Assembly (NCBI GenBank): GCA_964500785.1
Contig: CAZCQM010000001.1
Span: 1 to 38,234 of the forward strand
Source of the DNA: an uncultured bacterium
Lineage (GTDB): Bacteria > Krumholzibacteriota > Krumholzibacteriia > WVZY01 > JAKEHA01
Direction: 5' to 3'
Length of the DNA: 38,234 nucleotides
Shown here: piece after piece, positions 16,753 to 30,871 of the stretch
How positions within the stretch are numbered: the stretch's first letter is position 1
Layout of the letters: the number at the start of each line of letters is the position of its first letter
Made by a program: the position numbers and the translations under genes
The notes under the pieces: generated by a model
Seen by the model: the letters and a program-made list of their open reading frames with translations, nothing else
Database searches by the model: none
Told to the model about the DNA's origin: nothing

Positions 16753-16754
16753 GG

Positions 16755-17498: not shown

Positions 17499-17557
17499 TT
17501 GTCCGTACCCATGACGGTTCGAAGCCGATTCCGCGTCGTCACCCAAGGAGACGTTCC

Positions 17558-17615: not shown

Positions 17616-20072
17616 AAGGAGGACTACCTCAACATCCACAAGATGCTCCTCCGGCAGGCGCTCGACATGATCCACGGCAACGGGTTCAAGTTCCTGATCG
17701 AGCAGACCTACCTGCTCGAGCAGATCGAGTCCGACGACCCCGTCCTGTTCGGAGAGATTCGCGAGGCCATCCTGGCGGGGCACATCGAGATCGCAGACGG
17801 CGAGTACCTGATGCCCGATCCCATGATCCCCGCCGAGGAAGTCCTCGTGCGCGAGATCCTCTTCGGCAAGCTCTACTGCAAGGAGACCTTCGGGGTCGAC
17901 GTGCCGGTCGCGTGGATGTCGGACGGTTTCGGTCTCAACGCGCAGCTCCCGCAGATCTACAAGAAGTCCGGCTACAAGTGGCTCGCCTTCCGCCGCGGCC
18001 TCCCGCGCTCGGTGGGATCCCGCACCAGCGAGTTCATGTGGGAAGGTCTCGACGGGACCCGGATCCTCGCGCACTGGATGCCCCTGGGGTATCGCGCCGG
18101 GCTCGACCTCACGAAGTGGAAGGAGTCGCTCGCGACGCTCGAGAATCTCGCGGCGACGCCCAACATCCTCATGCCGTGCGGGAGCGGGGGAATGCTCATC
18201 CAGGAGGAGATTCCCGACGCGGTGCGCGCGTGGAACCAGGGCAACGGCACTCCGAAGATGCAGATCTCCACGCCCAGCCAGTTCTTCGAGGCCGTCGATG
18301 CGGCCGGAGAGCCCCCGACGGTTTTTCGCGGCGAGCTTTACAGCGCCGATCTCGAGGACATCTTCCCGGACGTCGTATCGAGCCGCATATCGCTCAAGCT
18401 CGCCATCCGCGAGTGCGAGGATCTCATCAAGTCGGTGGAGAAGGCGGCGGCGCTCCGCTATCTGGGCGGGCGCGGCTATCCGTCCGACCGCCTCGAGGCG
18501 GCGTGGAAGAAGATGCTCTTTCTGTCGTTCCACGATGTCGTTCCCAGCTGCGGAATCGACGAGGTGTACGAAGAGGCGTGGGAGTACATCGCCGACATCA
18601 AGGCGTTCGCGAAGGCGTTCTACTCCACGATGGCCGACACCCTTCCCCGCAACCAGGCGCGCGGCGTGGCGATCATGGTGTTCAATCCGCACAGCTGGGA
18701 GATCAAGGACTGGGTGGAGGTCGACCTCAAGCTGGGGACGGGCTGGAGCAAGGAGCCCGGCGTCTACGTCGACGGCAAGGAAGTGGTGAGCGAGGCCCGG
18801 GACATCAAGCGCTGGGACGACGGCTCGATCCAGCGAACCAAGCTGGGATTCGTCGCCTCCGGGCCGCCGATGGGATACCGCGTCTACGAGGTGAAACCCA
18901 AGAGCCGCGAGTTCCGGAGCAAGAAGATCACCGTCAGCGGTACGTCCCTGTCCACGAAGTTCTTCGACGTGCGCGTGGACGAGCGCGGCATCCTGGAGGT
19001 TTTCGACCGCAACGGCAAGGAGATCGTGCGCGGCAACGAGGTCGTGATCGACGCCGAGGTCGGCGACCTCTACTTCCACAGGAGTTTCCTCGATCAGTGC
19101 CTCGGGTCGGAGAGCGGCGACGGGATCCGCTTCGGCGCCTTCAAGCCGGAAGGGTTGACCATCGAAAAAGGCGCGGTCCGCTCGATCATCACCTTCAAGA
19201 ACGCGTTCTACTGCCTGCGCTGGCCGTACTACCTGCTCGAGAAGTACAAACCGCTCCTGTACCGGCAGAAGACGCTGGAAGTCACCAAGCGCGTCATCGT
19301 CTACAACGACATCCCGCGCATCGACTTCTTCACCGAGATCGATCTGCAGCAGCCGCACGTCCGCGTCCGCCTGCGTTTCGACACGTGCATGGCCGCTCCG
19401 GCGTACACGCGCGAGACGCAGTTCGGCGCCATCGAGCTCCCCTACCAGCGCACCCTGGAGGAGGGCGTCAAGATGCCGTCGCTGACGTGGATCGTCGCCG
19501 AAGCGGGTGAACGCGGCCTTGCGTTCCTCACCAAGGGTGTGCCCATCAACGAGGTCAAGGGCGGCGAGATCTTCTGCACGCTGCTGCGCAGCGTTTCCGT
19601 GCTCTCGGCGGACGGCGTCAGCGGCCCGCTCATCCCGACCCCCGGCGCGATGGAGCTGGGCCGGCACACCTACCAGTACTCGATTTACCCGTACACCGGC
19701 GACTGGCGCGACGCCCAGGTGCCGCGGGAAGCGTACAGCTTCGGCGAGGGCCTGATCGGGTTCCAGGTCGACCGGCTGCCCGACGAGCGGGAGTCCGAGA
19801 CGTTCCATCTCGAGCCCGACAACCTGGTGACCTCGGCGCTGAAGAAGGCCGAGCGCGAGGAAGCCCTGATCCTGCGCTTTTTCGAGACCAGCGGCCGGGC
19901 CTGCCGGGCCCGTCTGTCGGTGCCTGCCACAATCGGCCGGGTGTCTCATGCGACGCTCCTGGAGGAGGATACGGGGGAAGGAGAGATCCCGATCCGAAAC
20001 GGGAAGGTCGAAATGGACGTCAAGCCCTTCGAGATCATCACCCTGAAGCTCAAAACAATGCTTGTGCCCTGA
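17610..20072 (+). CDS. Glycoside hydrolase family 38 alpha-mannosidase (MngB-like); the main ORF as written lacks the N-terminal HxHxD motif
   Basis: GHIEIADGEYLMPD...LFGKLY...PVAWMSDGFGLNAQLPQIYKKSGYKWLAFRRG (nucleophile Asp region), collinear with bacterial GH38 enzymes such as E. coli MngB. 820 aa. Confidence 0.85.
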   Translation: MTKEDYLNIHKMLLRQALDMIHGNGFKFLIEQTYLLEQIESDDPVLFGEIREAILAGHIEIADGEYLMPDPMIPAEEVLVREILFGKLYCKETFGVDVPVAWMSDGFGLNAQLPQIYKKSGYKWLAFRRGLPRSVGSRTSEFMWEGLDGTRILAHWMPLGYRAGLDLTKWKESLATLENLAATPNILMPCGSGGMLIQEEIPDAVRAWNQGNGTPKMQISTPSQFFEAVDAAGEPPTVFRGELYSADLEDIFPDVVSSRISLKLAIRECEDLIKSVEKAAALRYLGGRGYPSDRLEAAWKKMLFLSFHDVVPSCGIDEVYEEAWEYIADIKAFAKAFYSTMADTLPRNQARGVAIMVFNPHSWEIKDWVEVDLKLGTGWSKEPGVYVDGKEVVSEARDIKRWDDGSIQRTKLGFVASGPPMGYRVYEVKPKSREFRSKKITVSGTSLSTKFFDVRVDERGILEVFDRNGKEIVRGNEVVIDAEVGDLYFHRSFLDQCLGSESGDGIRFGAFKPEGLTIEKGAVRSIITFKNAFYCLRWPYYLLEKYKPLLYRQKTLEVTKRVIVYNDIPRIDFFTEIDLQQPHVRVRLRFDTCMAAPAYTRETQFGAIELPYQRTLEEGVKMPSLTWIVAEAGERGLAFLTKGVPINEVKGGEIFCTLLRSVSVLSADGVSGPLIPTPGAMELGRHTYQYSIYPYTGDWRDAQVPREAYSFGEGLIGFQVDRLPDERESETFHLEPDNLVTSALKKAEREEALILRFFETSGRACRARLSVPATIGRVSHATLLEEDTGEGEIPIRNGKVEMDVKPFEIITLKLKTMLVP

Positions 20073-20325
20073 CCGGGCGTTGACGCACTATTCCGCAGTC
20101 CATAGCCGCCCCGGATCAACGCTTTGAGAATGCGCATGTTGCATGGGGTCCTGCGTGGAAAAACTCGACAGTCGTTCCCGGCACCTCTGCGCCGGGGCGT
20201 ATTGTCCCTTCCGATGGCCGAACCCCGAAGCGGCACGCGAGTTGCGGTCTCCAACGCGCGGCGCCCGGCGCCGGTGAAAACCGGTCCATCACGGATTCTC
20301 CCCGTGAGGGCGCGTCGTTCCGGAT

Positions 20326-21234
20326 ATGGCCATGCCCGTACGTAAGACTTCGACGCCCGCGACGCCGCGGGCACCGGCGACCCGCAGCGGCGCCGGCCCC
20401 GGGCGTTGGGTGCTTCCTCCTCTCGTGCTGTTCGCGATCATCGCCGCCGTGGGGGCTCCCTACTTCCTGCTTCCGACCGCGGAGCGTCTCCGGTCCCCGC
20501 TGCACGTCTGGTTCCGCCCGTCCGGCTACATCGGGCAGACGACGGGCCTCATCACGTTCGTCGGATTCCTGTTCATGTGGCTCTTCCCGCTGCGGAAGAA
20601 GTTCCGCAAGGCCGAGTACCTGGGCCCGGTTCCACGCTGGCTGGACGTCCACATCGGCGTGGGTCTAGTGCTCCCGCTGACCGGGGCCATCCACGCCGGG
20701 TTCCACGTGGGCGGCGTCATCGGGCTGGGCTACATCGCCATGCTCATCGTGTGTGCGAGCGGCGTCATCGGCCGCTACCTCTACGTGCGCATTCCGCGCG
20801 GCCGCAGCGGCGTCGAGCTGGGTCTGGGCGACGTCGCCGCCCAGCAGCGCGCGCTCCTCGGCGAGATCGCCGACGCGACGGGGCTTCCCGTGCCCGAGGT
20901 CCAGGAGGCGCTCAAGGTCGACACGTCTCCGGTTCGCAAAGGCATCGTCGCCGCCTTCCTCCAGATGATCCGGGATGACATGGAGCGCGCACGCGTTGTG
21001 CGGCGTCTTCGCAAGCGCCTCAAGGCACGGGGGTCGAGCGCGGCGTCCCTGCGCAAGGTCTCGACGCTGGCGCGCCGCCAGATGTCGCTCAGCCAGCAGG
21101 CGCGGCTGCTCGACGTGACGCAGGGCATCTTCCGTTACTGGCACGCGGCGCACCGCCCCTTCGCCATCACCGCGTTTATCGCCGTCACGATCCACGTCGT
21201 GGTCGTGGTCGCCGTCGGCGCCACCTGGTTCTAG
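20326..21234 (+). CDS. Five-TM membrane protein with two H-x13-H pairs (ferric-reductase-domain-like di-heme b candidate)
   Basis: Predicted TM3 is LDVH-IGVGLVLPLTGAI-H and predicted TM5 is AAH-RPFAITAFIAVTI-H. Each His pair is exactly 13 residues apart, and the two helices have the same orientation. Arg-rich N-terminus and loops fit a cytoplasmic location. Confidence 0.55.
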   Translation: MAMPVRKTSTPATPRAPATRSGAGPGRWVLPPLVLFAIIAAVGAPYFLLPTAERLRSPLHVWFRPSGYIGQTTGLITFVGFLFMWLFPLRKKFRKAEYLGPVPRWLDVHIGVGLVLPLTGAIHAGFHVGGVIGLGYIAMLIVCASGVIGRYLYVRIPRGRSGVELGLGDVAAQQRALLGEIADATGLPVPEVQEALKVDTSPVRKGIVAAFLQMIRDDMERARVVRRLRKRLKARGSSAASLRKVSTLARRQMSLSQQARLLDVTQGIFRYWHAAHRPFAITAFIAVTIHVVVVVAVGATWF

Positions 21235-21252
21235 CGATCGTCCGAGGCCGCT

Positions 21253-22671
21253 ATGTGGATCACTACGGTAGCATTCGTCGTTCTGACCGCGTTGTTCGTG
21301 GCGCGTCACATGCGCCGGCGTGCGGGCGACACCAAAGGCACCCTGTGCCCGCGCTGTCGCGCCAACGTCCCACCCGGCGCGGCGCGGTGCCCGCGATGCC
21401 ACGTGCCGATGCAGCTCTACGAGGTCGTGAGCGCGAAGGCGGTCACCGATGACGCGGCGTCCGGGGGCGGTGGCGACGCGCACGCCGTGGTCCGCGCCGA
21501 CCTGTGCGTCGGGTGCGGCGCGTGCGTGCCCGTTTGTCCCGAACCCAACGCCATCAAACTGGTGGGCAAGCTCGCCACGGTGAATTCGACGCTGTGCAAG
21601 GGGCACGGCAACTGCGTCGAGGCGTGCCCGGTCGGGGGCATCGTGCTGACGACGGGCGAGGCGGTCCACCGGGTCGAGGTCCCCGAGATCGATACTGATT
21701 TCGAGAGCAACGTGCGCGGTGTCTACGTGGTGGGTGAGCTGGGCGGCCGCGGGCTGATCAAGAACGCCATCAACGAGGCCACCGTGGCCATCGAGCACAT
21801 CGCCGACGACCTCGCGCTGCGGCGCAAGACCGACGCCGAATCGGCCGGTATCCTGGATGTCATCATCGTGGGGAGCGGCCCGGCCGGGCTCGCCGCGGGG
21901 CTCGCGGCGAAGGCGCGCGATCTGCGCTACCTGGTCCTCGAGCGGGGCGCCCTGGCGGACACGATCCGCAAGTACCCGCGGGCAAAGTTCTTGCTTGCCG
22001 AGCCGGTACGCGTCCCCTTGTACGGAAACCTCTGGGTGTCCGACGCCTCCAAGGAGACCCTCCTCAAGGTATGGGAAGAGATCATCCAGCGCACGGGACT
22101 GGACGTGCGCACCAACCACCGCGTCACCGGCGTGGCGCCGGAGGGCGGGCATCTCGTTGTCCGGACCCCGGAGGAGGAGTTCCGCGCGCGGCGCGTGGTC
22201 CTGGCCATGGGGCGTCGCGGAAACCCGCGCCGGCTGGGGGTCACCGGCGAGGATGCGGGCAAGGTCATCTACGACGTCGTCGACATGGAGTCGTTCGCGG
22301 GGCAGCAGATGCTCGTCGTGGGCGGCGGCGACAGCGCGGTGGAGTCGGCGGTCGGCCTGGCTCGACAGCCGGGTACGAAGGTCACCCTGAGTTACCGGGG
22401 CGAGGAGTTCAAGCGAGTCAAGGAACGCAACCGGACCAAGCTCGAGGAAGCGGTGCGCGGCGGAACGCTGCGCGCTCTCCTGCAGAGTCAGGTCAAAGAG
22501 ATTCGTGAAAAAGAAGTCGTCATTGAAGTCGAGGGGCGGGAGGAAGTGTTTGCGAACGATACGGTGGTCGTCCGCATCGGTGGCGATCCGCCGTTTGCGT
22601 TCCTCGAGCAGATCGGAATCCGGATCGTCAAGAAGGACATCCCGCTTCCGCAGGAGGAGGTCTTTGCGTAA
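21253..22671 (+). CDS. Membrane-anchored NAD(P)/FAD-dependent oxidoreductase with zinc-ribbon and 2x[4Fe-4S] ferredoxin domain
   Basis: N-terminal TM helix followed by RRR; CPRC...CPRC; CVGCGACVPVCP and CKGHGNCVEACP; Rossmann motifs VIIVGSGPAGLAAG and LVVGGGDSAVE. Confidence 0.75.
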   Translation: MWITTVAFVVLTALFVARHMRRRAGDTKGTLCPRCRANVPPGAARCPRCHVPMQLYEVVSAKAVTDDAASGGGGDAHAVVRADLCVGCGACVPVCPEPNAIKLVGKLATVNSTLCKGHGNCVEACPVGGIVLTTGEAVHRVEVPEIDTDFESNVRGVYVVGELGGRGLIKNAINEATVAIEHIADDLALRRKTDAESAGILDVIIVGSGPAGLAAGLAAKARDLRYLVLERGALADTIRKYPRAKFLLAEPVRVPLYGNLWVSDASKETLLKVWEEIIQRTGLDVRTNHRVTGVAPEGGHLVVRTPEEEFRARRVVLAMGRRGNPRRLGVTGEDAGKVIYDVVDMESFAGQQMLVVGGGDSAVESAVGLARQPGTKVTLSYRGEEFKRVKERNRTKLEEAVRGGTLRALLQSQVKEIREKEVVIEVEGREEVFANDTVVVRIGGDPPFAFLEQIGIRIVKKDIPLPQEEVFA

Positions 22672-22693
22672 CACGGGGCTGGCCGCGCGGCGA

Positions 22694-24496
22694 ATGGCAG
22701 GATGCCGAACGCGCGTGGCTCTCCTGGCGATCGTGCTCGTACTCGGTTCGACTGCGGGGGCTCGCGCGCAGGTGTCGCCCGGCCCCCTGTCGAAGGCACA
22801 CGCAGATCTGGACGGCACGCTGGGATGCGCCCGGTGTCACGGAAAAGGCGAAGGTGAAATGGATCGCAGGTGCATGGCATGTCACGGGGAAATCGCTTCC
22901 CTCGTCTCGAACCGCCGGGGCTTCCACGGGCGCGAGGCGTCGAAGGACTGCGCCCACTGCCACCCCGATCACGGAGGGCGGGACTTCGCGCTCGTCGCGT
23001 GGCCGGACAAGAGCCCGGATAAGTTCGATCACAAGCGGACGGGATGGGCCCTTCGCGGCAAGCACGCCACGGTGGAGTGCAAGAAGTGCCACACGGCCGC
23101 GCATCTGAGCACCGAAATGGCGGGACTGGTGAAGAACAAGGATCGCGACCTCATCTGGGTCGGCATGGACTCGAACTGCAAGACGTGCCACGAGGACGTT
23201 CACCGCGGCGCCCTGGGCCCGAACTGCGCGTCGTGCCACTCCGAGGAGGGCTGGCGCCCGGTCCCCGGGTTCGACCATGCGAAGACGACGTTCCCGCTCA
23301 CCGGTCTGCACGGCAAGGTGCCGTGCGCGAAGTGCCACGAGGCGCCCGGCCTCAAGCTCGCCCACGACAGCGCGGGCAAGCCGATCCCCCTGTACAAGCC
23401 GCTTCCGCACGACGAGTGCGGCGCGTGCCACGCCGATCCGCACAAGGGCGCCTTCGGCGCGCGATGCAGCAGCTGTCACGTGACGGCGGGCTTCAAGGTT
23501 ATCGAGAAGGGACGCTTCGACCACGACAAGACGCGGTACCCGCTCCGTGGCAAGCACGCCGCGCTCGCGTGCGCGAAGTGTCACGACGAGAAGACGGCGT
23601 GGGGCAAGAAGCCGCCCTTCGCGACCTGCGGCGGGTGTCACAGGGACGCCCATGCCGGCCAGGCGACGCTGGCGGGGAAGCCGGCGGACTGCGCGTCGTG
23701 CCACACGGTCGAGGGGTTCACTCCCAGCACCTACACGGTCGACGATCATGCGAAGACGGGCTTCCCACTGGTCGGCGCCCACGCGCGCAACGCGTGCAAG
23801 TCCTGCCACGGACACACGCCCGCCGGGTCCGACGCGCAGGTGGCGGCGCTGCTGGGTCCCGCGAAGGTGTGGTTCCGCCCGACCCACGACCGCTGCGTCG
23901 ACTGCCACCGCGACCCGCACGAGGGGCGCTTCTCGCCGGGAGGCGATCGCGCGCGCTCGAAGGACTGCGTGGCCTGTCACACGATGGAGAGCTTCCGCCC
24001 GTCCACGTTCGACGCCGCCGCGCACAACGACGCCCGGCTCAAGCTGGAGGGCGCGCACCGCGCCGTGCCGTGCCTGGCGTGCCATGCGGAGCTAGATCCC
24101 GGTTCCGAGGCCGCGCGGGCCGCTCAGAAGAAGGCCCGCAAGGGAGGACACGGCAAGAACACCGAAGCCGCGGGCGTGACGCTGCTGTTCACGAGCGACA
24201 AACGCGTGTGCCGCGACTGTCACGAGAGCGCCCACAGCACGCAGTTCGATTCGAAGAAGAACCACGGCGCCTGCGACGCCTGTCACGACTCGGAGCGGTT
24301 CCGGCCCGCGAGTCGCTTCGATCACGACAAGGTCAAGTCCTTCCCTCTGGAAGGCGCACACCAGAAGGTCGCGTGTGACAAGTGTCACCCGACCGTAACG
24401 ACTTCAAAAGGAAAGAAAATGATACTGTACCGGCCGCTCTCGTCGCGCTGCGAGAGCTGTCATACGAACGAGGATCTTCTCCGGATGCGCAATTGA
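22694..24496 (+). CDS. Periplasmic multiheme c-type cytochrome, 20 CXXCH motifs
   Basis: Signal peptide (STAGARA-QV). I counted 20 CXXCH by eye. The module FDH..T.FPL.G.H....C..CH recurs. The ATG at 22694 follows the previous stop at 22671; the listed 22505 start overlaps the upstream gene. Confidence 0.9.
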   Translation: MAGCRTRVALLAIVLVLGSTAGARAQVSPGPLSKAHADLDGTLGCARCHGKGEGEMDRRCMACHGEIASLVSNRRGFHGREASKDCAHCHPDHGGRDFALVAWPDKSPDKFDHKRTGWALRGKHATVECKKCHTAAHLSTEMAGLVKNKDRDLIWVGMDSNCKTCHEDVHRGALGPNCASCHSEEGWRPVPGFDHAKTTFPLTGLHGKVPCAKCHEAPGLKLAHDSAGKPIPLYKPLPHDECGACHADPHKGAFGARCSSCHVTAGFKVIEKGRFDHDKTRYPLRGKHAALACAKCHDEKTAWGKKPPFATCGGCHRDAHAGQATLAGKPADCASCHTVEGFTPSTYTVDDHAKTGFPLVGAHARNACKSCHGHTPAGSDAQVAALLGPAKVWFRPTHDRCVDCHRDPHEGRFSPGGDRARSKDCVACHTMESFRPSTFDAAAHNDARLKLEGAHRAVPCLACHAELDPGSEAARAAQKKARKGGHGKNTEAAGVTLLFTSDKRVCRDCHESAHSTQFDSKKNHGACDACHDSERFRPASRFDHDKVKSFPLEGAHQKVACDKCHPTVTTSKGKKMILYRPLSSRCESCHTNEDLLRMRN

Positions 24497-24522
24497 ACCG
24501 CCTGACGGCGAGGTGATTGGTT

Positions 24523-26487
24523 ATGGTTGCACATTTCATATGCGTCTCTTCCAGAATGACCGTGGCACTCGCGGCGACGGTCGCGCTCGTCCTGGCGGCT
24601 TCGTTGCCGACGGCCGCACGGGCGTCGGCGCCGAAGGCGAAGGTCGACAACCCGCACGGTGCCTTCAAGGAGGACTGCTCGATGTGCCACAGCGCCAGGG
24701 CCTGGAAGCCGGCGCAGATCGGGAAGAAATTCGATCACGAGAAGTACGGGGGCATCCCGCTGACGGGCGCGCATTCGACGGTCAAGTGCACGAAGTGCCA
24801 TACCAGCCTCGATTTTTCGACGGCGTCCGGCGCGTGCGTCGATTGCCACTCTGACGTCCACAACGGCGAGCTGGGCACCGATTGCGCCCAGTGTCACGGG
24901 ACCAAGAGCTTCAACGACCGCAACGACCAGATAAACATGCACCGCCTGACGCGATTCCCGCTGGAGGGAGCGCACCAGACGCTCGACTGCGATCTGTGTC
25001 ACAAGGCGTCGGCCCCCGGGTCGATGGTGTTCGTCAACACGCCGACGGAGTGCGAGTCGTGCCATATGCAGGACTACGCAGCCACGACCGCGCCCAACCA
25101 CGAGTCGGCCGGATTCAGCCATCAGTGCGAGTCGTGCCACAACGAGCTGGCCTGGTCACGCGTGCGTTTCGACCACGCCGAGACCAGCTTCCCGCTGACG
25201 GGTGCCCACGCGGCGCTGCAGTGCGACCGCTGCCATGAGGGCAACGTGTTCACGGGTCTCTCGACGGCGTGCGTATCGTGTCACCAGACCGACTTCGACG
25301 GCACGACGGACCCCAACCACGCCACCGCCGGCTTCTCGACCGACTGCGAGGTGTGTCATTCGACGACGACGTGGCAGGGTGCCAATTTCAACCATTCGGC
25401 GACGAACTTCCCGCTGACGGGCGCCCACTCCGCGGTGCAGTGCGACCAGTGCCACACAGGCGGCGTCTACACCGGACTGTCCACGGCGTGCGTGTCGTGT
25501 CATCAGACCGATTACGACGGAACCAACGACCCCGCCCACGCGGCGGCCGGCTTCCCGACCGACTGCGAGGCGTGCCATTCGACGACGACCTGGCAGGGGG
25601 CGGTATTCAATCACTCGGAGACGAACTTCCCGCTGACGGGGGCGCACGTGGCCGTCACCTGCGACCAGTGCCACGCCGGCGGCGTTTACTCCGGCCTCTC
25701 GACCGCGTGCATCTCGTGCCACCAGACCGACTACGACGGCACGACCGATCCCGCCCACGCCGCGGCCGGGTTCCCGACCGACTGCGAGGCGTGCCACACG
25801 ACGACGCGCTGGCAGGGCGCGGTCTTCAACCACTCGGCGACGAATTTCCCGCTGACGGGAGCCCACCTGGCCGCGACGTGCGACCAGTGCCACGCCGGTG
25901 GCGTGTACTCCGGACTCTCGACCGCGTGCATCTCGTGCCACCAGACCGACTACGACGGCACGACCGATCCCGCCCATGCATCGGCGGGGTTCCCGACCGA
26001 CTGCGAGGCGTGCCACACGACGACGACGTGGCAGGGCGCGATCTTCAACCACTCGGCGACGAATTTCCCGCTGACGGGGGCGCACCTGACGGCGACGTGC
26101 GACCAGTGCCACGCCGGTGGCGTGTACTCGGGTCTCTCGACGGCGTGCGTGTCGTGCCATCAGAGCGAGTACAACGGCACGACCAATCCGGCGCACGCGG
26201 CGGCGGGGTTCCCGACCGACTGCGAGGCGTGCCATACGACGACGCGCTGGGACGGCGCCACGTTCAACCACGACCCGTGGTTCCCGATCTACTCGGGCCG
26301 CCACGCCGGCCGGTGGAACCGGTGCGAGGACTGTCACCCCAGCGCCACCAGCTATACGACGTTCGACTGTCTGGGGTGTCACCCGCACGACGACAAGGCG
26401 GGGACCGACAGCCACCACCGGGGCATGAACGGCTACTCGTACGAGTCGACCCGGTGTTATTCGTGCCACCCGAACGGGAGAGCCTAG
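24523..26487 (+). CDS. Periplasmic multiheme c-type cytochrome, 25 CXXCH motifs, built from tandem triheme modules
   Basis: Signal peptide (PTAARASA). I counted 25 CXXCH by eye. The start is ambiguous (TTG 24517, ATG 24523, ATG 24556); ATG 24523 sits 6 nt after AGGTGA. Confidence 0.9.
   Translation: MVAHFICVSSRMTVALAATVALVLAASLPTAARASAPKAKVDNPHGAFKEDCSMCHSARAWKPAQIGKKFDHEKYGGIPLTGAHSTVKCTKCHTSLDFSTASGACVDCHSDVHNGELGTDCAQCHGTKSFNDRNDQINMHRLTRFPLEGAHQTLDCDLCHKASAPGSMVFVNTPTECESCHMQDYAATTAPNHESAGFSHQCESCHNELAWSRVRFDHAETSFPLTGAHAALQCDRCHEGNVFTGLSTACVSCHQTDFDGTTDPNHATAGFSTDCEVCHSTTTWQGANFNHSATNFPLTGAHSAVQCDQCHTGGVYTGLSTACVSCHQTDYDGTNDPAHAAAGFPTDCEACHSTTTWQGAVFNHSETNFPLTGAHVAVTCDQCHAGGVYSGLSTACISCHQTDYDGTTDPAHAAAGFPTDCEACHTTTRWQGAVFNHSATNFPLTGAHLAATCDQCHAGGVYSGLSTACISCHQTDYDGTTDPAHASAGFPTDCEACHTTTTWQGAIFNHSATNFPLTGAHLTATCDQCHAGGVYSGLSTACVSCHQSEYNGTTNPAHAAAGFPTDCEACHTTTRWDGATFNHDPWFPIYSGRHAGRWNRCEDCHPSATSYTTFDCLGCHPHDDKAGTDSHHRGMNGYSYESTRCYSCHPNGRA
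25153..26247 (+). repeat. Five in-frame tandem copies of a 219-bp (73-aa) unit inside the 25-heme cytochrome gene
   Basis: Units begin with a TGG (Trp) codon at 25153, 25372, 25591, 25810 and 26029. Copies 3 and 4 share a 62-nt identical run (25696-25757 and 25915-25976). A more degenerate unit precedes at about 24930. Confidence 0.9.
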
Positions 26488-26493
26488 ACGCCG

Positions 26494-28116
26494 ATGCCGC
26501 GCTTCGCTCGTACGACTCTGGTGATGTTCGCGCTGCTTGTGGCGGCGTCGGTGCCGATTGCGACCGCGGCAGGCCACCGGATCACCTATCTGACGATCTC
26601 GACGGCATACATCGATGCCGGCCGCGACGACGGGGTGGCCGTGGGGGCGAGCGTCACGGTCGTGCGCGCGGGCAAGATCATCGCCACGCTGCTCGTGACC
26701 GACGTGTCGTCGAACCGGGCCGCGTGCACGATCCAGTCGTCCACCGAACCGGTCGCCATCGGGGATGCGATCCGGTACTCGCCCGTCAAGGCTCCCACGC
26801 CCGTCGACACGACGCGCACGGCGCCGCCGAGCCGCACGTTCTCGGGTAAGGTCGTGACGGGCACCGACGAGCCGGCGCCCACGCGAGCCGTGTCGTGGGC
26901 GCGCCGCAACGGTCTCCGCGGCCAGATCGGCGTGCGCTACCTCGGCATCATCGACCAGGGCGGCGTCGGCGGGAACCTGTCGCAGCCGTCCGCGGACATC
27001 CGGGTCGACGGTGCACGCGTGGGCCACTCGCCGTTCGACCTTCAGGTGGATGTTCGCGCGCGTCACTCGTACCAGTCCGTCCCGGGCGGCGACGGGTACG
27101 ACAACGGCCAGACCCGCGTGTACCGCATGAACAGCCGGTGGCACTCGCCCCATGACCGTCTCCGCGTGACCGTGGGGCGCCAGTTCTCGTCGTCGCTGAC
27201 GAGCATCAGCACGTTCGACGGCGCCCAGCTGGAATACGATTTCTCCCCCCGCTGGGGTATGGGGACGTTCGCGGGCACGCAACCCAGCATGGACGGCAAC
27301 TACGCGTTTTCCACCGATGTCAGAGAATACGGCGCCTTCGCGCGGCTGCGGTCAAAGCCGCGGTCCACGACACGCTGGGAAGCCGTCGTCGCCGGGATCG
27401 GCTCCTACCAGTTCGACAAGATCAACCGCGAGTACATGGCGCTGGTGGGACGCGTCAACGCGCCGAGGCTGTCCGTGATGGCGCAGCAGGAGATCGACGT
27501 CAACCGCGGCTGGAAGCACGACGCCGAAAACAGCCAGGTGTCGCTGACCAGCACGTTCGCGACGGCGCGCTACCGTCTGACACCCCACGTCGACCTCGAC
27601 GCCGGGTACGACAATCGGCGCAACGTCCGCTTGTATCGCGACTACATCAGTCCGGAGACGCTGTTCGACGATTCGTACCGGCGCGGCACCTGGGGCGGCG
27701 TCGGCGTGCGCCTGACCGCGCAGTACCGCCTGGGATTCTCCGCGCGGTCCAGCGGTGGCGGCAGCTCGGGCGACGCGACCTCGTATACGATGACCGGATC
27801 CGCCAACCGGCTCACCCCGCTTCACCTGAGCTTCCGGCTCCGGTCCACGCGCTACACCAACACGCGCCTGGACGGCTGGATGCACACGCTCTCCGGCAAC
27901 GTTCCCGTCGGGCCGCGCTGGCTCATGGAGCTCTACGGCGGCGTGCGCGACGAAAAGGGCCGGGGGGCGGTTATGGACACGAACACATCGTGGTTCGGCG
28001 GCAACCTGGACGTGGGTGTGGGTCAGAACTGGTACATCAACATGTCCGCGGAGCGCAACGGTGAGGGCCAGACCGCCTACGACCAGGTCTACACCAGCGT
28101 GAGCTGGCGCTTCTAG
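26494..28116 (+). CDS. Outer-membrane beta-barrel protein with a small N-terminal soluble domain (candidate porin partner of the cytochromes)
   Basis: Signal peptide (PIATAAG). About 100 aa of N-terminal beta-rich domain, then a Pro/Thr linker, then about 420 aa of alternating amphipathic strands ending ...YTSVSWRF (terminal Phe). Starts 6 nt after the cytochrome stop. Confidence 0.6.
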   Translation: MPRFARTTLVMFALLVAASVPIATAAGHRITYLTISTAYIDAGRDDGVAVGASVTVVRAGKIIATLLVTDVSSNRAACTIQSSTEPVAIGDAIRYSPVKAPTPVDTTRTAPPSRTFSGKVVTGTDEPAPTRAVSWARRNGLRGQIGVRYLGIIDQGGVGGNLSQPSADIRVDGARVGHSPFDLQVDVRARHSYQSVPGGDGYDNGQTRVYRMNSRWHSPHDRLRVTVGRQFSSSLTSISTFDGAQLEYDFSPRWGMGTFAGTQPSMDGNYAFSTDVREYGAFARLRSKPRSTTRWEAVVAGIGSYQFDKINREYMALVGRVNAPRLSVMAQQEIDVNRGWKHDAENSQVSLTSTFATARYRLTPHVDLDAGYDNRRNVRLYRDYISPETLFDDSYRRGTWGGVGVRLTAQYRLGFSARSSGGGSSGDATSYTMTGSANRLTPLHLSFRLRSTRYTNTRLDGWMHTLSGNVPVGPRWLMELYGGVRDEKGRGAVMDTNTSWFGGNLDVGVGQNWYINMSAERNGEGQTAYDQVYTSVSWRF

Positions 28117-29927
28117 CGGGCGGTCGAACCGGGGGACGGCTGGTACATCGCATCGATGTCGTCCCGGTAGGCTTCTTCCACGATCTTCCTTCGAACCTTC
28201 AGCGTCGGCGTGAGGTGACCCTCCGCGACGGTCAGCTCCCGGTCCAGGACCGTGAAGTTCTTGATCTTCTCGAACTGTGCCAGCTCTTCGTTGGCGCGGT
28301 CGACGATCCCCTGATAGAGCGCGCGCACCTCCGGCGATGCCGTGAGGCGCTTCCGGTCGGAAAGGTCGAGGCCGCCCGCCCGCGCCCACGCGTCGAGCCG
28401 GTCGAAGTTGGGCACGATCAGCATCGAGATGAAGGGCCGGCGATTGCCCACCAGGACGGCTTCGGTCACGAACTTGTTGCGCCGGATGCGTGCCTCGATG
28501 GGTTGCGGCGCCACCTTCTTGCCCCCCGCGGTGGCAATGAGATCCTTCTTCCGATCGGTGATGTAGAGGAACCCGTCTCCGTTGATGTGTCCGATGTCGC
28601 CGGTGTGGAACCATCCGCCGGCCAGCGCCTCGTCCGTCTGCTCGGGTTTGCGGAAATAGCCCTGCATGACGTTGTCGCCGCGCGCCAGGATCTCCCCGTC
28701 GTCCGCGATCTTGACCTCGACGCCGGGAAGGGGGCGGCCCACGCTGCCGATGCGCCAGTTCTCCTGCGTATTGACCGCGATGACGGGGGACGTCTCCGTG
28801 AGGCCGTATCCCTCGAGGATGGGGATACCGGCCGCCCGGAAGAACTCGGCGATCTCTTTCGACAACGGCGCACCCCCCGAGATGAAGAAGCGAAGCCGGC
28901 CGCCCACCCGCTCTCGGAGCGTGCGGAACGCGAGCGCGTCGGCCACGGTCCGTTGCAGGCGCGTCGCGGCGTTCGCGCCGCCCGCCGCCGTCTGTTCGAC
29001 GTAGGCGCGCCCCACCGCCATCGACCAGTGGAAGATGCTCTTGCGCAGAACGGACCCTTTCGCGACGGTGTCCAGGATGCGCGCATACATCTTCTCGTAC
29101 ACGCGGGGCACGCTGCAGACAACCGTCGGGCGCACCTCGCGAAGGTTGTCGGGCACGCGCTCGATGGACTCGGCGTACACGATCGAGGTTCCCGCCGTCA
29201 TCATGCAATAGAACCCCGCGGTGCGCTCGAAGACGTGGCTCAGGGGCAGGAACGACAGGCACGTATCCGAGGGGCGCAGGTCGAACACGGTCAGGCACTG
29301 CCGGATGTTGGCCATGAAGTTGCCGTGCGAGAGGATCGTGCCCTTGGGCTCGCCGGTGGTGCCCGACGTGTAGATGATGCTGGCCCACTCGCGGGGATGG
29401 ATTTCGGCGACGAGGGCGCGATAGGTTCGGTCATCCACGGGCTCGGCCGCACGCGCGAGGAACGCGTCGAACGTTTCGACGCCGTCCCCGCCGGCGTCTG
29501 CGTCGAAGGCGACTACGTGCTCGAGGAGTGGAAGCCGCGACCGCAGGCCCCGCACCGTGGCCGCGTGCTCCTTCGATGAGACGAAGATGACGCGGGCGTC
29601 CGCGTCGCGCAGCAGGTACTCGATGTTCGCGGGCGTGAGCGTGGGATAGATGGGAACGTCGACCACGCCCAGAGACAGCAGGGCCAGGTCGATGGCGGCC
29701 CACTCCGGCCGGTTCTCGGACAGGATCGCCACGCGGTCCGCACGCGCCAGACGCAACGCGCGCAGGGCGGCGACCGCCGCGCGCACGCGGCCGTACATGT
29801 CGGCGTGCGAGATGTCGAGCCAGTTCCCGTCGCTCTTGTGGCGAAACGCGTCCGGCTTGCCGAACGCATCCAGGGACGCGAGGAACTGGGCGGGAACCGA
29901 ACTCTGGAACTCCACGGGGGTCACCAT
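28113..29927 (-). CDS. Long-chain fatty-acid--CoA ligase (AMP-forming, ANL superfamily)
   Basis: IIYTSGTTGEPKGT (AMP-binding P-loop), GYGLTETSP, TGDIG...DGFLYITDRKKD, KVRRK. ATG at 29927-29925 with GGAGG upstream; the listed 683-aa ORF over-extends. Confidence 0.88.
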   Translation of the reverse strand: MVTPVEFQSSVPAQFLASLDAFGKPDAFRHKSDGNWLDISHADMYGRVRAAVAALRALRLARADRVAILSENRPEWAAIDLALLSLGVVDVPIYPTLTPANIEYLLRDADARVIFVSSKEHAATVRGLRSRLPLLEHVVAFDADAGGDGVETFDAFLARAAEPVDDRTYRALVAEIHPREWASIIYTSGTTGEPKGTILSHGNFMANIRQCLTVFDLRPSDTCLSFLPLSHVFERTAGFYCMMTAGTSIVYAESIERVPDNLREVRPTVVCSVPRVYEKMYARILDTVAKGSVLRKSIFHWSMAVGRAYVEQTAAGGANAATRLQRTVADALAFRTLRERVGGRLRFFISGGAPLSKEIAEFFRAAGIPILEGYGLTETSPVIAVNTQENWRIGSVGRPLPGVEVKIADDGEILARGDNVMQGYFRKPEQTDEALAGGWFHTGDIGHINGDGFLYITDRKKDLIATAGGKKVAPQPIEARIRRNKFVTEAVLVGNRRPFISMLIVPNFDRLDAWARAGGLDLSDRKRLTASPEVRALYQGIVDRANEELAQFEKIKNFTVLDRELTVAEGHLTPTLKVRRKIVEEAYRDDIDAMYQPSPGSTAR

Positions 29928-30142
29928 ACCTCCTGGTGGCGCGCGGCGCCATCTTTGCTTCATCGAGCAAGACACGGGCCAGAGCGGGCGGGCGGCCCGC
30001 CGGCGGCCCGGGACGCCGCGGATGCGGGCGGTGGTCAAATAGGGTTTGAAATGGCCCGCCCCCGCGGGTAGAGTAAAGCCCGATCCTGACCCGCCGCCCG
30101 GCGGAACGATATCCCGACCAACCAAGTTATTCGGAGGTTTCC

Positions 30143-30847
30143 ATGGCTCTCGATGCCACCGCATTCATCGGCAAGCTGGACGAGACGATCTCTTTGCACG
30201 CGATGCTGCAGCACCCGTTCTACCGGGCCTGGAACGAGGGCGGGCTCTCCAGGGAGACCCTGCGCGAGTACGCCAAGCAGTACTACGCCCACGTCCGCTT
30301 CTTTCCGCGCTACGTGAGCGCCGTGCACGCCTCGTGCGACGACATCCGCGTCCGCCAGCTGCTCCTCGAGAACCTGATCGACGAGGACCGCGGGGACGAC
30401 AACCACCCCGAGTTGTGGATGCGCTTCGCCGACGGCCTCGGCGTGGATCGCGGCGCGGTGCGCGACGCGGATCTCCTGCCGGCGACGCGCGAGTCGGTGG
30501 CCGAGATGGTGCGCCTGACGCGCAGCGACGACTTCCGCGACGGGCTGGCCGCTCTCTACGCCTATGAATCGCAGATCCCGCTGGTCGCGAAGACGAAGCG
30601 GGAGGGCCTGGCGTCGTTCTACGGCCTGAACGACGCGCGTTCGGTGGACTTCTTCACCGTCCACGAAGAGGCCGACATCGTCCACAGCCAGGTGGAGCGC
30701 GATCTGCTCGCCGAGCACTGCCGCACCGACGCCGCCCAGGCGCGCGCGCTGCAGTCGGCCGGCGACGGCGCGCGGGCGCTGTGGCTCTTTCTCGACGGCG
30801 TGCACGAGGCGTACTGCAAGGACGCGGTTCCGTCGCGCGAACGCTGA
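30143..30847 (+). CDS. CADD/CT610-like heme-oxygenase-fold di-iron protein (PqqC/TenA superfamily); candidate alternative p-aminobenzoate synthase
   Basis: Collinear with my recollection of Chlamydia CT610: HPFYRAWNEGGLSRETLREYAKQYYAHVRFFPRYVSAVHASCDD...LLENLIDEDRG.DNHPELW...AALYAYESQIP...FFTVHEEADIVH. Confidence 0.78.
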   Translation: MALDATAFIGKLDETISLHAMLQHPFYRAWNEGGLSRETLREYAKQYYAHVRFFPRYVSAVHASCDDIRVRQLLLENLIDEDRGDDNHPELWMRFADGLGVDRGAVRDADLLPATRESVAEMVRLTRSDDFRDGLAALYAYESQIPLVAKTKREGLASFYGLNDARSVDFFTVHEEADIVHSQVERDLLAEHCRTDAAQARALQSAGDGARALWLFLDGVHEAYCKDAVPSRER

Positions 30848-30871
30848 CACTCCATCGACAGGACGAGACAC

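What the first reader, a model, noticed from the sequence alone, without database searches (positions are those of the whole stretch)
20326..28116. Candidate non-canonical transmembrane and extracellular electron conduit
Seen: five co-directional genes separated by 6-26 nt. They encode:
- a 5-TM protein with two H-x13-H pairs;
- a TM-anchored zinc-ribbon / 2x[4Fe-4S] / FAD-NAD(P) oxidoreductase whose bulk should face the cytoplasm (RRR follows the anchor);
- two signal-peptide cytochromes with 45 CXXCH motifs in total (20 and 25);
- a beta-barrel OMP.

Established: porin-cytochrome modules (MtrCAB, PioAB/MtoAB, Geobacter Pcc) move electrons across the outer membrane. They are normally fed from the quinol pool by NapC/NirT- or CbcL-type proteins.

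Inference: here the inner-membrane entry looks instead like a split NOX/ferric-reductase arrangement (pyridine nucleotide to flavin to Fe-S to two b hemes). That would be an unusual way to wire cytoplasmic reductant directly to periplasmic multihemes and an OM barrel. The direction (export or uptake) is unknown. I saw no homologues of MtrA/B, CymA or OmcS-type genes by eye, and no cytochrome maturation genes in the window.
Basis: partly seen in the sequence, partly recalled or inferred. Interest (0 to 1): 0.82.

Follow-up and report, generated by a model that had tools for sequence, protein, structure and literature searches.

The report
Porin-cytochrome conduit with NAD(P)H-linked entry
This is a real five-gene operon for a heme "wire" predicted to run from the inner membrane out through an outer-membrane barrel; it matches the already described but untested PCC3 type, and adds a conserved flavin/iron-sulfur enzyme suggesting the wire is fed from cytoplasmic NAD(P)H rather than from the quinone pool.

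Summary
Five tightly spaced + strand genes encode:
- a 5-TM protein with two invariant WX3HX13H motifs;
- a membrane-anchored ferredoxin/FAD/NAD(P) enzyme;
- a 20-heme and a 25-heme cytochrome c;
- a 22-strand outer-membrane barrel.

All five co-occur in Krumholzibacteriota, Gemmatimonadota, Eisenbacteria and Acidobacteriota MAGs. They also sit on a plasmid of the cultured Bacteroidota isolate Emticicia oligotrophica, and stay together even where gene order is permuted.

He et al. 2017 described PCC3 clusters with the same ~300-aa inner-membrane protein signature and already noted its resemblance to ferric reductases and NOX. A 2026 metagenome paper mentions in passing a ferredoxin-NADP reductase gene near such clusters.

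What looks new is the near-obligate pairing of that membrane protein with the Fe-S flavoprotein: 72 of 75 loci, and also in distant subfamilies. This supports a two-component, NOX-like route from NAD(P)H to two b hemes, inferred from sequence and gene context only.

The membrane protein is not demonstrably a ferric-reductase-domain homologue: Pfam, Foldseek and hhalign were all negative or sub-threshold. Direction and acceptor are untested.

Verdict: new variant of a known kind.

The parts
20326..21234 (+). g1: 302-aa inner-membrane protein with 5 TM helices, predicted di-heme b cytochrome. It fits the PCC3/PCC4 'IMP' signature and matches no Pfam family.
   Evidence: Positive-inside count is 32 K/R on the N-terminus, loop 2 and loop 4, against 3 on the other side, so the N-terminus is cytoplasmic.
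20638..20694 (+). g1 TM3 motif W105-x3-H109-x13-H123
   Evidence: Translation WLDVHIGVGLVLPLTGAIH. W105, H109 and H123 are invariant in 67 homologues.
20758..20772 (+). g1 TM4 motif S145-G146-x-x-G149
   Evidence: Translation SGVIG; invariant. This is part of the He et al. 2017 IMP signature.
21139..21195 (+). g1 TM5 motif W272-x3-H276-x13-H290, with a further invariant H273
   Evidence: Translation WHAAHRPFAITAFIAVTIH; invariant.
21253..22671 (+). g2: 472-aa membrane-anchored ferredoxin-domain / FAD / NAD(P)-binding oxidoreductase
   Evidence: Pfam Pyr_redox_3 E 7e-48 and Fer4 families. The best solved relatives are YpdA/TrxR-like proteins and TrxR-type ferredoxin-NADP reductases. There is no Cys outside the zinc ribbon and the Fe-S motifs.
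21253..21330 (+). g2 N-terminal TM anchor followed by RHMRRR, which places the bulk of the protein in the cytoplasm
   Evidence: The anchor is kept in both gene arrangements in other genomes.
21346..21399 (+). g2 zinc ribbon, CPRC-x10-CPRC
   Evidence: the Pfam DZR match is weak. It is present in about 78% of co-directional homologues and absent from divergent ones and from Emticicia.
21505..21630 (+). g2 Fe-S domain: CxxCxxCxxxCP plus CxxHxxCxxxCP
   Evidence: All 7 Cys are invariant among the 71 of 72 sequences that have a residue there, apart from one C88S; H118 is present in 70 of those 71.
21856..22659 (+). g2 flavoprotein part: GxGPAG (FAD), GGGDSAxE (NAD(P)), and SYR382...R388
22694..24496 (+). 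g3: 600-aa secreted cytochrome c with 20 hemes. It is the conserved partner, inferred to span the periplasm and reach into the barrel. The open frame extends upstream to 22505.
   Evidence: Homologues carry 20 or 23 hemes in nearly all loci.
24556..26487 (+). g4: 643-aa secreted cytochrome c with 25 hemes, acidic and rich in T/S/A/G, inferred to be extracellular. The alternative start is ATG 24523.
   Evidence: Pfam MtrC/MtrF domain II/IV scores 42.8 bits against a cut-off of 30. Homologues carry 12-58 hemes.
25188..26271 (+). Tandem repeat inside g4: 219 bp x 4.9 copies, which is 73 aa with 3 CXXCH per unit
26494..28116 (+). g5: 540-aa outer-membrane protein with a signal peptide, a small N-terminal beta domain (26575-26778), a 22-strand barrel (26914-28110) and a C-terminal Phe
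   Evidence: AF2 model. Foldseek finds only generic large barrels. No Pfam, NCBIfam or PDB sequence match.

Best explanation
The locus encodes a PCC3-like electron conduit that spans the cell envelope, with a two-component inner-membrane entry module.

**Proposed path** (every step is inferred from sequence and context; none is shown biochemically)
1. In the cytoplasm, the membrane-anchored protein g2 oxidises NAD(P)H at its FAD. The SYR...R motif suggests NADPH.
2. g2 passes single electrons through its fused ferredoxin domain: first an all-Cys cluster, then a 3Cys-1His cluster.
3. g1 carries two b hemes between TM3 and TM5. H109/H276 sit near the cytoplasmic face and H123/H290 near the periplasmic face. 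These hemes take the electrons across the membrane.
4. The 20-heme cytochrome g3 receives the electrons at the periplasmic face of g1. It bridges the periplasm and enters the 22-strand barrel g5.
5. The 25-heme, repeat-built cytochrome g4 takes over on the cell surface and reduces an external acceptor such as Fe(III)/Mn(IV) minerals, humics or O2.

**Energetics.** The route bypasses the quinone pool, and outward electron flow uses up membrane potential. It would therefore serve to dispose of reductant, or to dissolve or modify an extracellular substrate. It would not be an energy-conserving respiration.
For: **Components**
- Component identities.
- The heme-ligand histidines and the WX3HX13H/SGXXG motifs are invariant in 67 homologues. 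They are kept in 90 of 103 full-length family representatives.
- Matched membrane depth and an N-in topology follow from helix limits and charge counts.

**g2 features**
- The Fe-S, FAD and NAD(P) motifs are invariant or nearly so in 72 sequences, and there is no redox-active CxxC.
- The closest solved proteins include TrxR-type ferredoxin-NADP reductases.

**Gene linkage**
- g2 is adjacent to g1 in 72 of 75 loci: 45 co-directional, 26 divergent and 1 further upstream.
- The pairing holds in members only 27-31% identical to g1.
- All five genes are homologous in Emticicia pEMTOL02.
- The set is kept under a permuted order in L089.

**Cytochromes**
- The first cytochrome is constant at 20 or 23 hemes. 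The second varies from 12 to 58.
- This mirrors the published periplasmic/extracellular split in PCC3.

**Precedents**
- A 2026 study independently saw ferredoxin-NADP reductase genes next to such clusters.
Against: - There is no biochemical or genetic evidence for any step.
- g1 has no detectable homology to any characterised di-heme membrane protein. Heme binding therefore rests on motifs alone.
- I could not read model coordinates, so His-His distances were not measured.
- No complex model of g1 with g2, or of g3 with g5, could be run.
- Three loci lack g2, including the close syntenic relative L002.
- The Proteobacterial PCC3 clusters in the literature are described as four genes, with a quinone-active role proposed for the membrane protein.
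- The extracellular location of g4 is inferred only from composition, repeats and a Pfam MtrC-domain match.
- PCC3 clusters in Sideroxydans were not induced by Fe(II), so no physiological role of the type is established.
Confidence: 0.55

Rival explanations
1. Quinone-coupled model (He et al. 2017). g1 is a quinol oxidase or quinone reductase, like the b subunit of bc1 or of hydrogenase. It links the cytochromes to the quinone pool. g2 is an accessory enzyme, for example an NAD(P)H:quinone reductase feeding the local pool, or a regulator of the redox state.
For: This is the published hypothesis for the same protein signature. Proteobacterial PCC3 clusters are described without a g2-like gene. 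Three loci here also lack g2. MsrQ binds ubiquinone. Some family members give weak Ni_hydr_CYTB matches.
Against: The g1-g2 adjacency is near-obligate across phyla and subfamilies. g2 carries a ferredoxin domain with a His-ligated cluster, which suits protein-to-protein electron transfer. No quinone-site motif or homology was detected.
Confidence: 0.2
2. Inward electron uptake. The conduit oxidises extracellular Fe(II), Mn(II), reduced humics or a cathode, and g1-g2 deliver the electrons to NAD(P)+ for biosynthesis.
For: PCC3 was first proposed in Fe(II)- and Mn(II)-oxidiser genomes. Porin-cytochrome conduits can run in both directions (discussed). Ferredoxin-NADP reductases are reversible (established knowledge).
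Against: Moving electrons from outside to inside works against the membrane potential. It is also uphill from Fe(II)-type donors to NAD(P)+ at -320 mV, and no coupling device is encoded here (inference from bioenergetics). Most PCC-bearing MAGs in the 2026 survey lack carbon fixation. PCC3 was not Fe(II)-induced in Sideroxydans.
Confidence: 0.1
3. Assembly helper. g1-g2 supply reductant across the membrane to mature the two heme-rich cytochromes, by keeping heme iron or CXXCH thiols reduced. They are not part of the working electron path.
For: g2 has a thioredoxin-reductase-like fold. In Emticicia the cluster directly follows a large ccsA gene. Ninety cysteines have to be kept reduced.
Against: g1 has no conserved Cys, and g2 has none outside its metal sites, so a thiol relay is excluded. 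General maturation systems handle other multiheme proteins without such helpers (established knowledge).
Confidence: 0.07
4. Periplasmic redox system rather than an extracellular one. Both cytochromes stay in the periplasm as an electron store or as a reductase for a soluble substrate, and g5 is a substrate channel.
For: Neither cytochrome has a lipobox, and no secretion gene lies in the window. The location of g4 was not tested.
Against: There is no match to nitrite, sulfite, tetrathionate or Hmc-type families; NCBIfam scores are far below the cut-offs. g4 passes the Pfam threshold for the MtrC/MtrF outer-membrane cytochrome domain. The barrel is always linked to the cytochromes and matches no porin family.
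Confidence: 0.08

Closest known systems
PCC3 porin-cytochrome gene clusters (He et al. 2017, Front Microbiol 8:1584; Sideroxydans Slit_0867-0870, Leptothrix cholodnii SP-6)
   Same: - The gene set and order match: inner-membrane protein, ~21-heme cytochrome, variable repeat-rich cytochrome, porin.
- The membrane protein is ~300 aa with 5 TM helices, SGXXG on TM4 and WX3HX13H on TM3 and TM5.
- The amino-acid-to-heme ratio is low (26-30).
- The L. cholodnii porin is predicted to have 22 strands, as here.
   Different: - Here a membrane-anchored ferredoxin/FAD/NAD(P) gene is part of the set in almost all loci.
- The hosts are Krumholzibacteriota, Gemmatimonadota, Eisenbacteria, Acidobacteriota and Bacteroidota, not Proteobacteria.
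- Sequence homology to the type PCC3 proteins could not be tested.
- PCC3 itself has no experimentally verified function.
PCC4 clusters, subgroup II (He et al. 2017)
   Same: The inner-membrane protein carries the same motif signature, and an Fe-S protein gene sits next to it.
   Different: PCC4 has three small periplasmic cytochromes (4, 5 and 10 hemes) and no extracellular one. Its Fe-S partner is a pfam13247 protein, not a ferredoxin-flavoprotein fusion.
NADPH oxidase / ferric reductase (FRD superfamily) and the two-component MsrQ-Fre system of E. coli
   Same: The logic is the same: NAD(P)H to flavin, then transmembrane b heme(s) held by His pairs on TM3 and TM5 with 13-residue spacing, then an acceptor outside the cytoplasm. 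MsrQ-Fre shows that the dehydrogenase can be a separate protein.
   Different: - g1 has 5 TM helices, not 6, plus a ~110-aa cytoplasmic helical insert.
- No significant Pfam, fold or profile similarity to the FRD family was found.
- Two Fe-S clusters lie between the flavin and the heme.
- The acceptor is a multiheme chain, not O2, Fe(III) chelates or MsrP.
MtrCAB (Shewanella) and MtoAB/PioAB
   Same: A periplasmic multiheme protein sits inside an outer-membrane barrel and hands electrons to a surface multiheme protein. g4 residues 157-316 pass the Pfam threshold for MtrC/MtrF domain II/IV.
   Different: - The MtrA/DmsE model scores 28 bits against a cut-off of 192.
- The barrel has 22 strands, not 26, and does not match the MtrB family.
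- The cytochromes carry 20 and 25 hemes, not 10.
- Mtr is fed by the quinol dehydrogenase CymA.
Thioredoxin-reductase-type ferredoxin-NADP+ reductases and YpdA/Bdr flavoproteins
   Same: g2 residues 202-469 align over the full length (7a76 E 2e-27; 3ab1 E 2e-14). They have the two-Rossmann FAD/NAD(P) architecture and lack the TrxR CxxC.
   Different: g2 is fused to a 7Cys-1His ferredoxin domain, a zinc ribbon and a TM anchor. It scores 175.8 against the 339.9 cut-off of the YpdA model, so it is not an equivalog.
Geobacter porin-cytochrome (OmaB-OmbB-OmcB) fed by ImcH/CbcL/CbcBA
   Same: The outer-membrane module has the same three parts, and a b-heme membrane protein (CbcL) lies at the inner membrane (recalled knowledge).
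   Different: The Geobacter entry proteins oxidise menaquinol. The periplasmic partner has 8 hemes. I found no sequence similarity here, and the NCBIfam hits to Geobacter c7 and nanowire models are below their cut-offs.

Membership tests
PCC3-type porin-cytochrome cluster (He et al. 2017) | ~300-aa inner-membrane protein with 5 TM helices, SGXXG on TM4 and WX3HX13H on TM3 and TM5 | tested here: met
   g1 is 302 aa with 5 TM helices. It has W105x3H109x13H123, S145-G-x-x-G149 and W272x3H276x13H290, all invariant.
PCC3-type porin-cytochrome cluster (He et al. 2017) | [quoted passage not shown] | tested here: met
   g3 has 20 CXXCH and 30 aa per heme. Homologues have 20 or 23 hemes. The count is one below the published range. 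Location was not tested.
PCC3-type porin-cytochrome cluster (He et al. 2017) | Second, extracellular cytochrome with a variable heme number, internal repeats and T/S/A/G-rich composition | tested here: inconclusive
   Sequence features are met: 25 hemes, a 73-aa x ~5 repeat, 40.6% T+S+A+G, and 12-58 hemes in homologues. Extracellular location cannot be tested with these tools.
PCC3-type porin-cytochrome cluster (He et al. 2017) | Adjacent outer-membrane beta-barrel porin | tested here: met
   AF2 gives a 22-strand barrel with a C-terminal Phe. The L. cholodnii PCC3 porin is predicted to have 22 strands.
PCC3-type porin-cytochrome cluster (He et al. 2017) | Sequence homology to the type proteins (e.g. 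Slit_0867-0870) | not tested
   No reference sequences could be obtained. The supplement holds only repeat tables, and the single genome scan returned only the 80 best loci, none proteobacterial.
Ferric reductase domain superfamily (NOX, FRE, STEAP, MsrQ; Pfam PF01794) | Significant match to the family profile | tested here: not met
   PF01794 gives E 0.1 and 13.1 bits against a cut-off of 28, covering only residues 271-296. 26 of 67 relatives give weak hits, the best at E 0.0048. hhalign of the family profile against E. coli MsrQ gives probability 0.2%.
Ferric reductase domain superfamily (NOX, FRE, STEAP, MsrQ; Pfam PF01794) | Six transmembrane helices with a four-helix heme-binding core | tested here: not met
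   g1 has five TM helices. Foldseek of the confident model against the PDB found no NOX, DUOX or STEAP match; the best E was 0.32.
Ferric reductase domain superfamily (NOX, FRE, STEAP, MsrQ; Pfam PF01794) | Two bis-His motifs on TM3 and TM5, spaced by 13 (12-13) residues, binding two b hemes | tested here: inconclusive
   The motif positions and spacing are met. Heme binding itself cannot be tested here.
MtrCAB / MtoAB | Decaheme MtrA/DmsE-family periplasmic cytochrome | tested here: not met
   TIGR03508 scores 27.7 bits (g3) and 28.2 bits (g4) against a cut-off of 192.2.
MtrCAB / MtoAB | MtrB/PioB-family 26-strand porin | tested here: not met
   g5 has no Pfam or NCBIfam hit. It has 22 strands, and no MtrB chain appears among the top 50 Foldseek matches.
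MtrCAB / MtoAB | MtrC/OmcA-type surface cytochrome domains | tested here: inconclusive
   One stretch of g4 (157-316) matches PF22113 at 42.8 bits against a cut-off of 30. There is no full MtrC architecture and no PDB sequence relative.
YpdA / bacillithiol disulfide reductase (TIGR04018) | Score above the equivalog cut-off | tested here: not met
   g2 scores 175.8 bits against a cut-off of 339.9. It is related in fold only.
TrxR-type ferredoxin-NADP+ reductase | FAD and NAD(P) Rossmann domains without the redox-active CxxC, and working with a ferredoxin | tested here: met
   Motifs are invariant or nearly so. There is no Cys in residues 127-472. Solved relatives include 3ab1, 3lzw and 2zbw. 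The ferredoxin is fused. Activity was not tested.

The most novel reading that the evidence does not exclude
g1 and g2 together are a new, widespread class of two-component transmembrane NAD(P)H oxidoreductase. It would be NOX-like in logic but evolutionarily separate from the ferric-reductase-domain superfamily. It would wire the cytoplasmic pyridine-nucleotide pool directly to a ~45-heme chain reaching the cell surface, bypassing quinones. That would give soil and freshwater heterotrophs (Gemmatimonadota, Acidobacteriota, Krumholzibacteriota, some Bacteroidota) a non-respiratory way to reduce minerals, humics or O2 outside the cell. It would also reassign the function of the unexplained inner-membrane protein of PCC3 and PCC4 clusters.
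Probability: 0.4. Interest if true: 0.8.

Novelty: new variant of a known kind. Interest (0 to 1): 0.6.

Why it matters
- **Gap in known systems.** Characterised extracellular electron transfer systems of Gram-negative bacteria (Mtr, Geobacter Pcc) take electrons from quinols. PCC3-type clusters are widespread and heme-rich, but their inner-membrane step has been a guess since 2017.
- **What the pairing suggests.** Here the membrane protein is almost always paired with a ferredoxin/FAD/NAD(P) enzyme, across at least five phyla and under gene-order changes. This gives a concrete and testable alternative: direct coupling to NAD(P)H.
- **Ecological meaning if true.** The system would be an electron outlet rather than an energy-conserving respiration. 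It could bear on extracellular metal reduction, humic reduction or superoxide production by common soil and freshwater heterotrophs.
- **Scale.** At least 559 species-level genomes encode a g1 relative, and the g1 family has about 3,000 clusters at 50% identity.
- **Experimental handle.** A cultured isolate, Emticicia oligotrophica DSM 17448, carries the whole set on a 100-kb plasmid, which makes genetics feasible.

Tried and rejected
1. **FRD/NOX membership of g1.** Pfam was sub-threshold. Foldseek against the PDB gave nothing. hhalign against E. coli MsrQ and the cytochrome b561 YodB gave nothing. I rejected membership but kept the functional analogy.
2. **'g2 is a facultative neighbour'.** This was my first impression from L002. 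I withdrew it after 80 loci showed adjacency in 72 of 75.
3. **Rosetta-stone fusions.** Representatives P0263, P0256 and P0260 combine g1 with Fer4/Pyr_redox. Their g1 part stops before or within TM5, and P0350 lies in a locus of fragmented genes. I treated them as probable frameshift or gene-call artefacts and did not use them.
4. **Thiol-relay or DsbD-like role.** Rejected, because neither g1 nor the flavoprotein part of g2 has conserved Cys.
5. **Known periplasmic reductase families for g3 and g4.** NCBIfam HmcA, DmsE and QrcA hits are far below their cut-offs, and there are no PDB sequence relatives.
6. **Nutrient porin for g5.** There is no family hit. Foldseek gives only generic barrels at TM 0.3-0.46.
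7. **Taxon names for distant g1 relatives.** Cluster look-up was uninformative.
8. **Type PCC3 sequences from the He et al. supplement.** None are held as text.
9. **Promoter and terminator scan.** Uninformative: no sigma-70 sites, and terminator-like hits were about 2 sd above the shuffled mean and mostly inside coding sequence.
10. **Literature search.** I looked for a prior description of the NAD(P)H-linked module. I found only PCC3/PCC4 and a one-sentence mention of nearby ferredoxin-NADP reductase genes in 2026. Other candidate papers had nothing.

Full report
**1. The observation**

The region 20326-28116 holds five + strand genes. The gaps between them are 18, 22, 26 (or 59) and 6 nt. 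A 253-nt gap separates g1 from the upstream GH38 mannosidase gene. The last gene ends in a 4-nt overlap with a convergent acyl-CoA ligase gene.

- **g1** (302 aa) has five hydrophobic helices. A confident AF2 model agrees (pLDDT 87.7). H109-x13-H123 and H276-x13-H290 are present.
- **g2** (472 aa) has an N-terminal TM helix followed by RHMRRR, a CPRC...CPRC ribbon, a Fer4 dicluster domain and a Pyr_redox_3 flavoprotein domain at E 7e-48.
- **g3 and g4** carry 20 and 25 CXXCH motifs. Their own Cys and His content predicts about 0.5 by chance (my arithmetic).
- **g5** (540 aa) matches no family. It folds in AF2 (pLDDT 86.6) into a small N-terminal beta domain plus 22 strands, and it ends in Phe.

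The second Fe-S motif of g2 is C-x2-H-x2-C-x3-CP, which is invariant in 72 homologues. One cluster therefore has three Cys and one His, or is a 3Fe-4S cluster.

**2. Conservation**

*g1 and g5 homologues*
- g1 has hundreds of homologues, all labelled hypothetical and without a Pfam domain. The named ones come from Krumholzibacteria and Gemmatimonadetes.
- g5 has a similar spread, including Acidobacteria.
- A scan of one genome per species found at least 559 genomes with a g1 relative. The 80 best are MAGs of Krumholzibacteriota (some labelled Latescibacteria), Gemmatimonadota, Eisenbacteria and Acidobacteriota.

*g2 adjacency in those 80 loci* (raw table)

| g2 position relative to g1 | Loci |
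|---|---|
| Immediately downstream, co-directional | 45 |
| Immediately upstream, divergent | 26 |
| 5 kb upstream | 1 |
| Absent, with adequate flanks | 3 |
| Undeterminable | 4 |

- Divergent copies lack the zinc ribbon but keep the TM anchor.

*The cytochromes and the barrel*
- Of 52 loci that reach the barrel gene, 46 have exactly two multiheme ORFs.
- The first cytochrome has 20 or 23 hemes almost everywhere. The second ranges from 12 to 58.

*A cultured host and more distant relatives*
- A tblastn search of plasmids found the whole set in a cultured organism, Emticicia oligotrophica DSM 17448 (Bacteroidota), on plasmid pEMTOL02. The order there is ccsA, g1-like (27% identity), g2-like (37%), a 23-heme cytochrome, a 40-heme cytochrome, and a 538-aa protein related to g5 (E 2e-13).
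- A profile of the g1 family finds 3,067 clusters at 50% identity with E ≤ 0.001. 90 of 103 full-length representatives keep the motif set.
- Four distant representatives (27-31% identical to g1) were looked up, and each again has a g2 homologue next to it. In one (L089) the order is permuted: cytochrome, cytochrome, barrel with an AMIN domain, a 273-aa protein, g1, g2.

The five components therefore travel together, and g1-g2 is the tightest pair.

**3. What is already known**

- He et al. 2017 defined PCC3 clusters as a porin, an extracellular multiheme cytochrome, a periplasmic multiheme cytochrome (median 34 and 21 hemes) and a conserved ~300-aa inner-membrane protein.
- They defined that protein, together with its PCC4 counterpart, by five TM helices, SGXXG on TM4 and WX3HX13H on TM3 and TM5. 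They pointed out the likeness to the ferric reductase domain of FRE and NOX. They proposed two b hemes and a quinone-active role.
- g1 has W105x3H109x13H123, S145GxxG149 and W272x3H276x13H290, all invariant.
- Other features also match: gene order, the constant/variable split of the two cytochromes, their internal repeats and composition, and a 22-strand porin in Leptothrix.
- PCC3 is still functionally unverified. It was not induced by Fe(II) in Sideroxydans.
- PCC4 subgroup II has a different Fe-S gene next to its membrane protein.
- A 2026 karst metagenome paper notes, in one sentence, a ferredoxin-NADP+ reductase gene near 7 of 11 porin-cytochrome clusters with ~20-strand porins. One of its MAGs (SAR286) is my locus L025.
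- In the library available to me I found no paper that links that reductase to the inner-membrane protein or proposes a mechanism.

**4. Is g1 a ferric-reductase-domain protein?**

It is not demonstrably one.
- The Pfam PF01794 match is E 0.1 over one helix. Weak hits to PF01794, DUF4405 and Ni_hydr_CYTB are scattered over 26, 17 and 9 of 67 relatives.
- Foldseek of the model against the PDB gives nothing better than E 0.32.
- hhalign of the family against E. coli MsrQ and YodB gives probability 0.2%.
- g1 has five helices, not six, and a ~110-residue helical cytoplasmic insert between TM4 and TM5.

The resemblance is one of design. Charge counts put the N-terminus, loop 2 and the insert in the cytoplasm (32 K/R against 3). 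That places H109 and H276 about seven to eight residues in from the cytoplasmic face, and H123 and H290 at the periplasmic end. This geometry suits two stacked bis-His hemes. I could not read the model coordinates to measure distances.

**5. What g2 is**

- Its flavoprotein part aligns end to end with YpdA/TrxR-like proteins and with TrxR-type ferredoxin-NADP reductases. It scores far below the YpdA equivalog cut-off.
- GxGPAG, GGGDSAxE and SYR...R are invariant or nearly so. The Arg residues suggest NADPH, by analogy with the HRR motif of thioredoxin reductase (recalled knowledge).
- There is no Cys outside the ribbon and the Fe-S motifs, so it is not a disulfide reductase.
- It is in effect a ferredoxin fused to a ferredoxin-NADP reductase and tethered to the inner face of the membrane.

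**6. Mechanism**

The best reading is outward flow:

NAD(P)H → FAD → two Fe-S clusters → heme b (cytoplasmic side) → heme b (periplasmic side) → g3 → through g5 → g4 → external acceptor

- The identity of each cofactor site is shown only at motif level. The order of transfer, the g1-g2 contact, the insertion of g3 in the barrel and the surface location of g4 are all inferred.
- A 22-strand barrel has a backbone diameter of about 39-44 Å. That is smaller than a 26-strand MtrB (46-52 Å by the same formula). I judge it still wide enough for a heme chain with little polypeptide.
- Outward electron flow is helped by the membrane potential and consumes it. No proton-translocating step is encoded. 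The system therefore looks like an electron outlet or a means of reducing something outside, not a coupling site (inference).
- Inward flow to NAD(P)+ would be uphill both electrically and in redox potential for Fe(II)-type donors.
- The quinone-coupled model of He et al. remains the main rival. Three loci lack g2, and proteobacterial PCC3 clusters are described without it.

**7. Verdict**

The finding is real and well conserved. Its claim of a non-canonical arrangement must be toned down. The cluster is a PCC3-like system, and the NOX-like motif was noted in 2017.

What appears new is twofold: the conserved ferredoxin-flavoprotein partner of the membrane protein, and the spread of the five-gene set through FCB-group phyla, Gemmatimonadota and Acidobacteriota, with a cultured host.

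I rate it a new variant of a known kind, with interest 0.6. The most novel reading is a distinct, widespread two-component transmembrane NAD(P)H oxidoreductase feeding a cell-surface heme wire. I give that about 0.4.

Noticed in passing
window 21595-21630 (g2 residues 115-126): The second ferredoxin motif is CxxHxxCxxxCP, with the His invariant in 70 of 72 homologues. This points to a His-ligated 4Fe-4S cluster or a 3Fe-4S cluster. His-ligated clusters often sit at protein-protein electron exits.
   Followed up: partly
window 20503-20505 (H60) and 21142-21144 (H273) in g1: Two further histidines are invariant besides the four presumed heme ligands. H60 lies in the most conserved periplasmic loop (RSPLHxWxRPSGYxGQ). 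H273 lies at the cytoplasmic start of TM5. Their role is unexplained; they might form a docking site or ligate a third cofactor.
   Followed up: no
window 25188-26271: A 219-bp tandem repeat with 4.9 copies (85% matches) builds the middle of g4 from 73-aa, three-heme units. Homologues range from 12 to 58 hemes, so this cytochrome seems to grow and shrink by repeat gain and loss.
   Followed up: partly
window 26575-26778 (g5 residues 28-95): A small beta domain precedes the barrel and is joined to it by a low-confidence linker. Some homologues carry AMIN (PF11741) or FlgT_C (PF16538) domains here, and one barrel protein is 994 aa (L089 6202-9183). It may dock on peptidoglycan or plug the barrel.
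   Followed up: no
L002 10001-16017, compared with window 16755-31567: A relative with 64% identity in g1 has matching genes on the downstream side (AMP-binding ligase, TENA/heme-oxygenase-like, racemase) and a MarR gene further upstream, but carries no g2 and no GH38 mannosidase. Both genes have therefore been gained or lost at this site.
   Followed up: partly
L086 (Emticicia pEMTOL02) 860-8940: A 1,028-aa ccsA cytochrome c biogenesis gene lies directly upstream of the cluster. Beyond it, on the other strand, are genes for a c-type cytochrome domain protein, YceI, a DUF5777 beta-barrel, a Rieske protein, another OM barrel and a sigma-70 family factor. This may be a second redox module on the same plasmid.
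   Followed up: no
L089 9183-10004 and L090 2683-3504: In the permuted form of the cluster, a conserved 273-aa secreted protein with no Pfam match sits between the barrel gene and g1. It may be an extra component of that subfamily.
   Followed up: no
window 28113-28116: The stop codon of g5 overlaps by 4 nt the stop of the convergent 683-aa AMP-binding (acyl-CoA ligase-like) gene. No intergenic terminator can exist between them.
   Followed up: no
window 26-2407: An MMPL/sterol-sensing-domain transporter gene is followed by a LolA-like lipoprotein-sorting gene at the left end of the window. Several large ORFs without Pfam matches lie at 2456-7118 and 10983-16755. None is related to the finding.
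   Followed up: no
P0263, P0256, P0260 (family representatives): These single ORFs join a g1-like N-terminal part to Fer4/Pyr_redox domains. The g1 part stops before or within TM5, so they are probably frameshifted or mis-called adjacent genes. A genuine fusion would be strong evidence for the g1-g2 partnership.
   Followed up: partly
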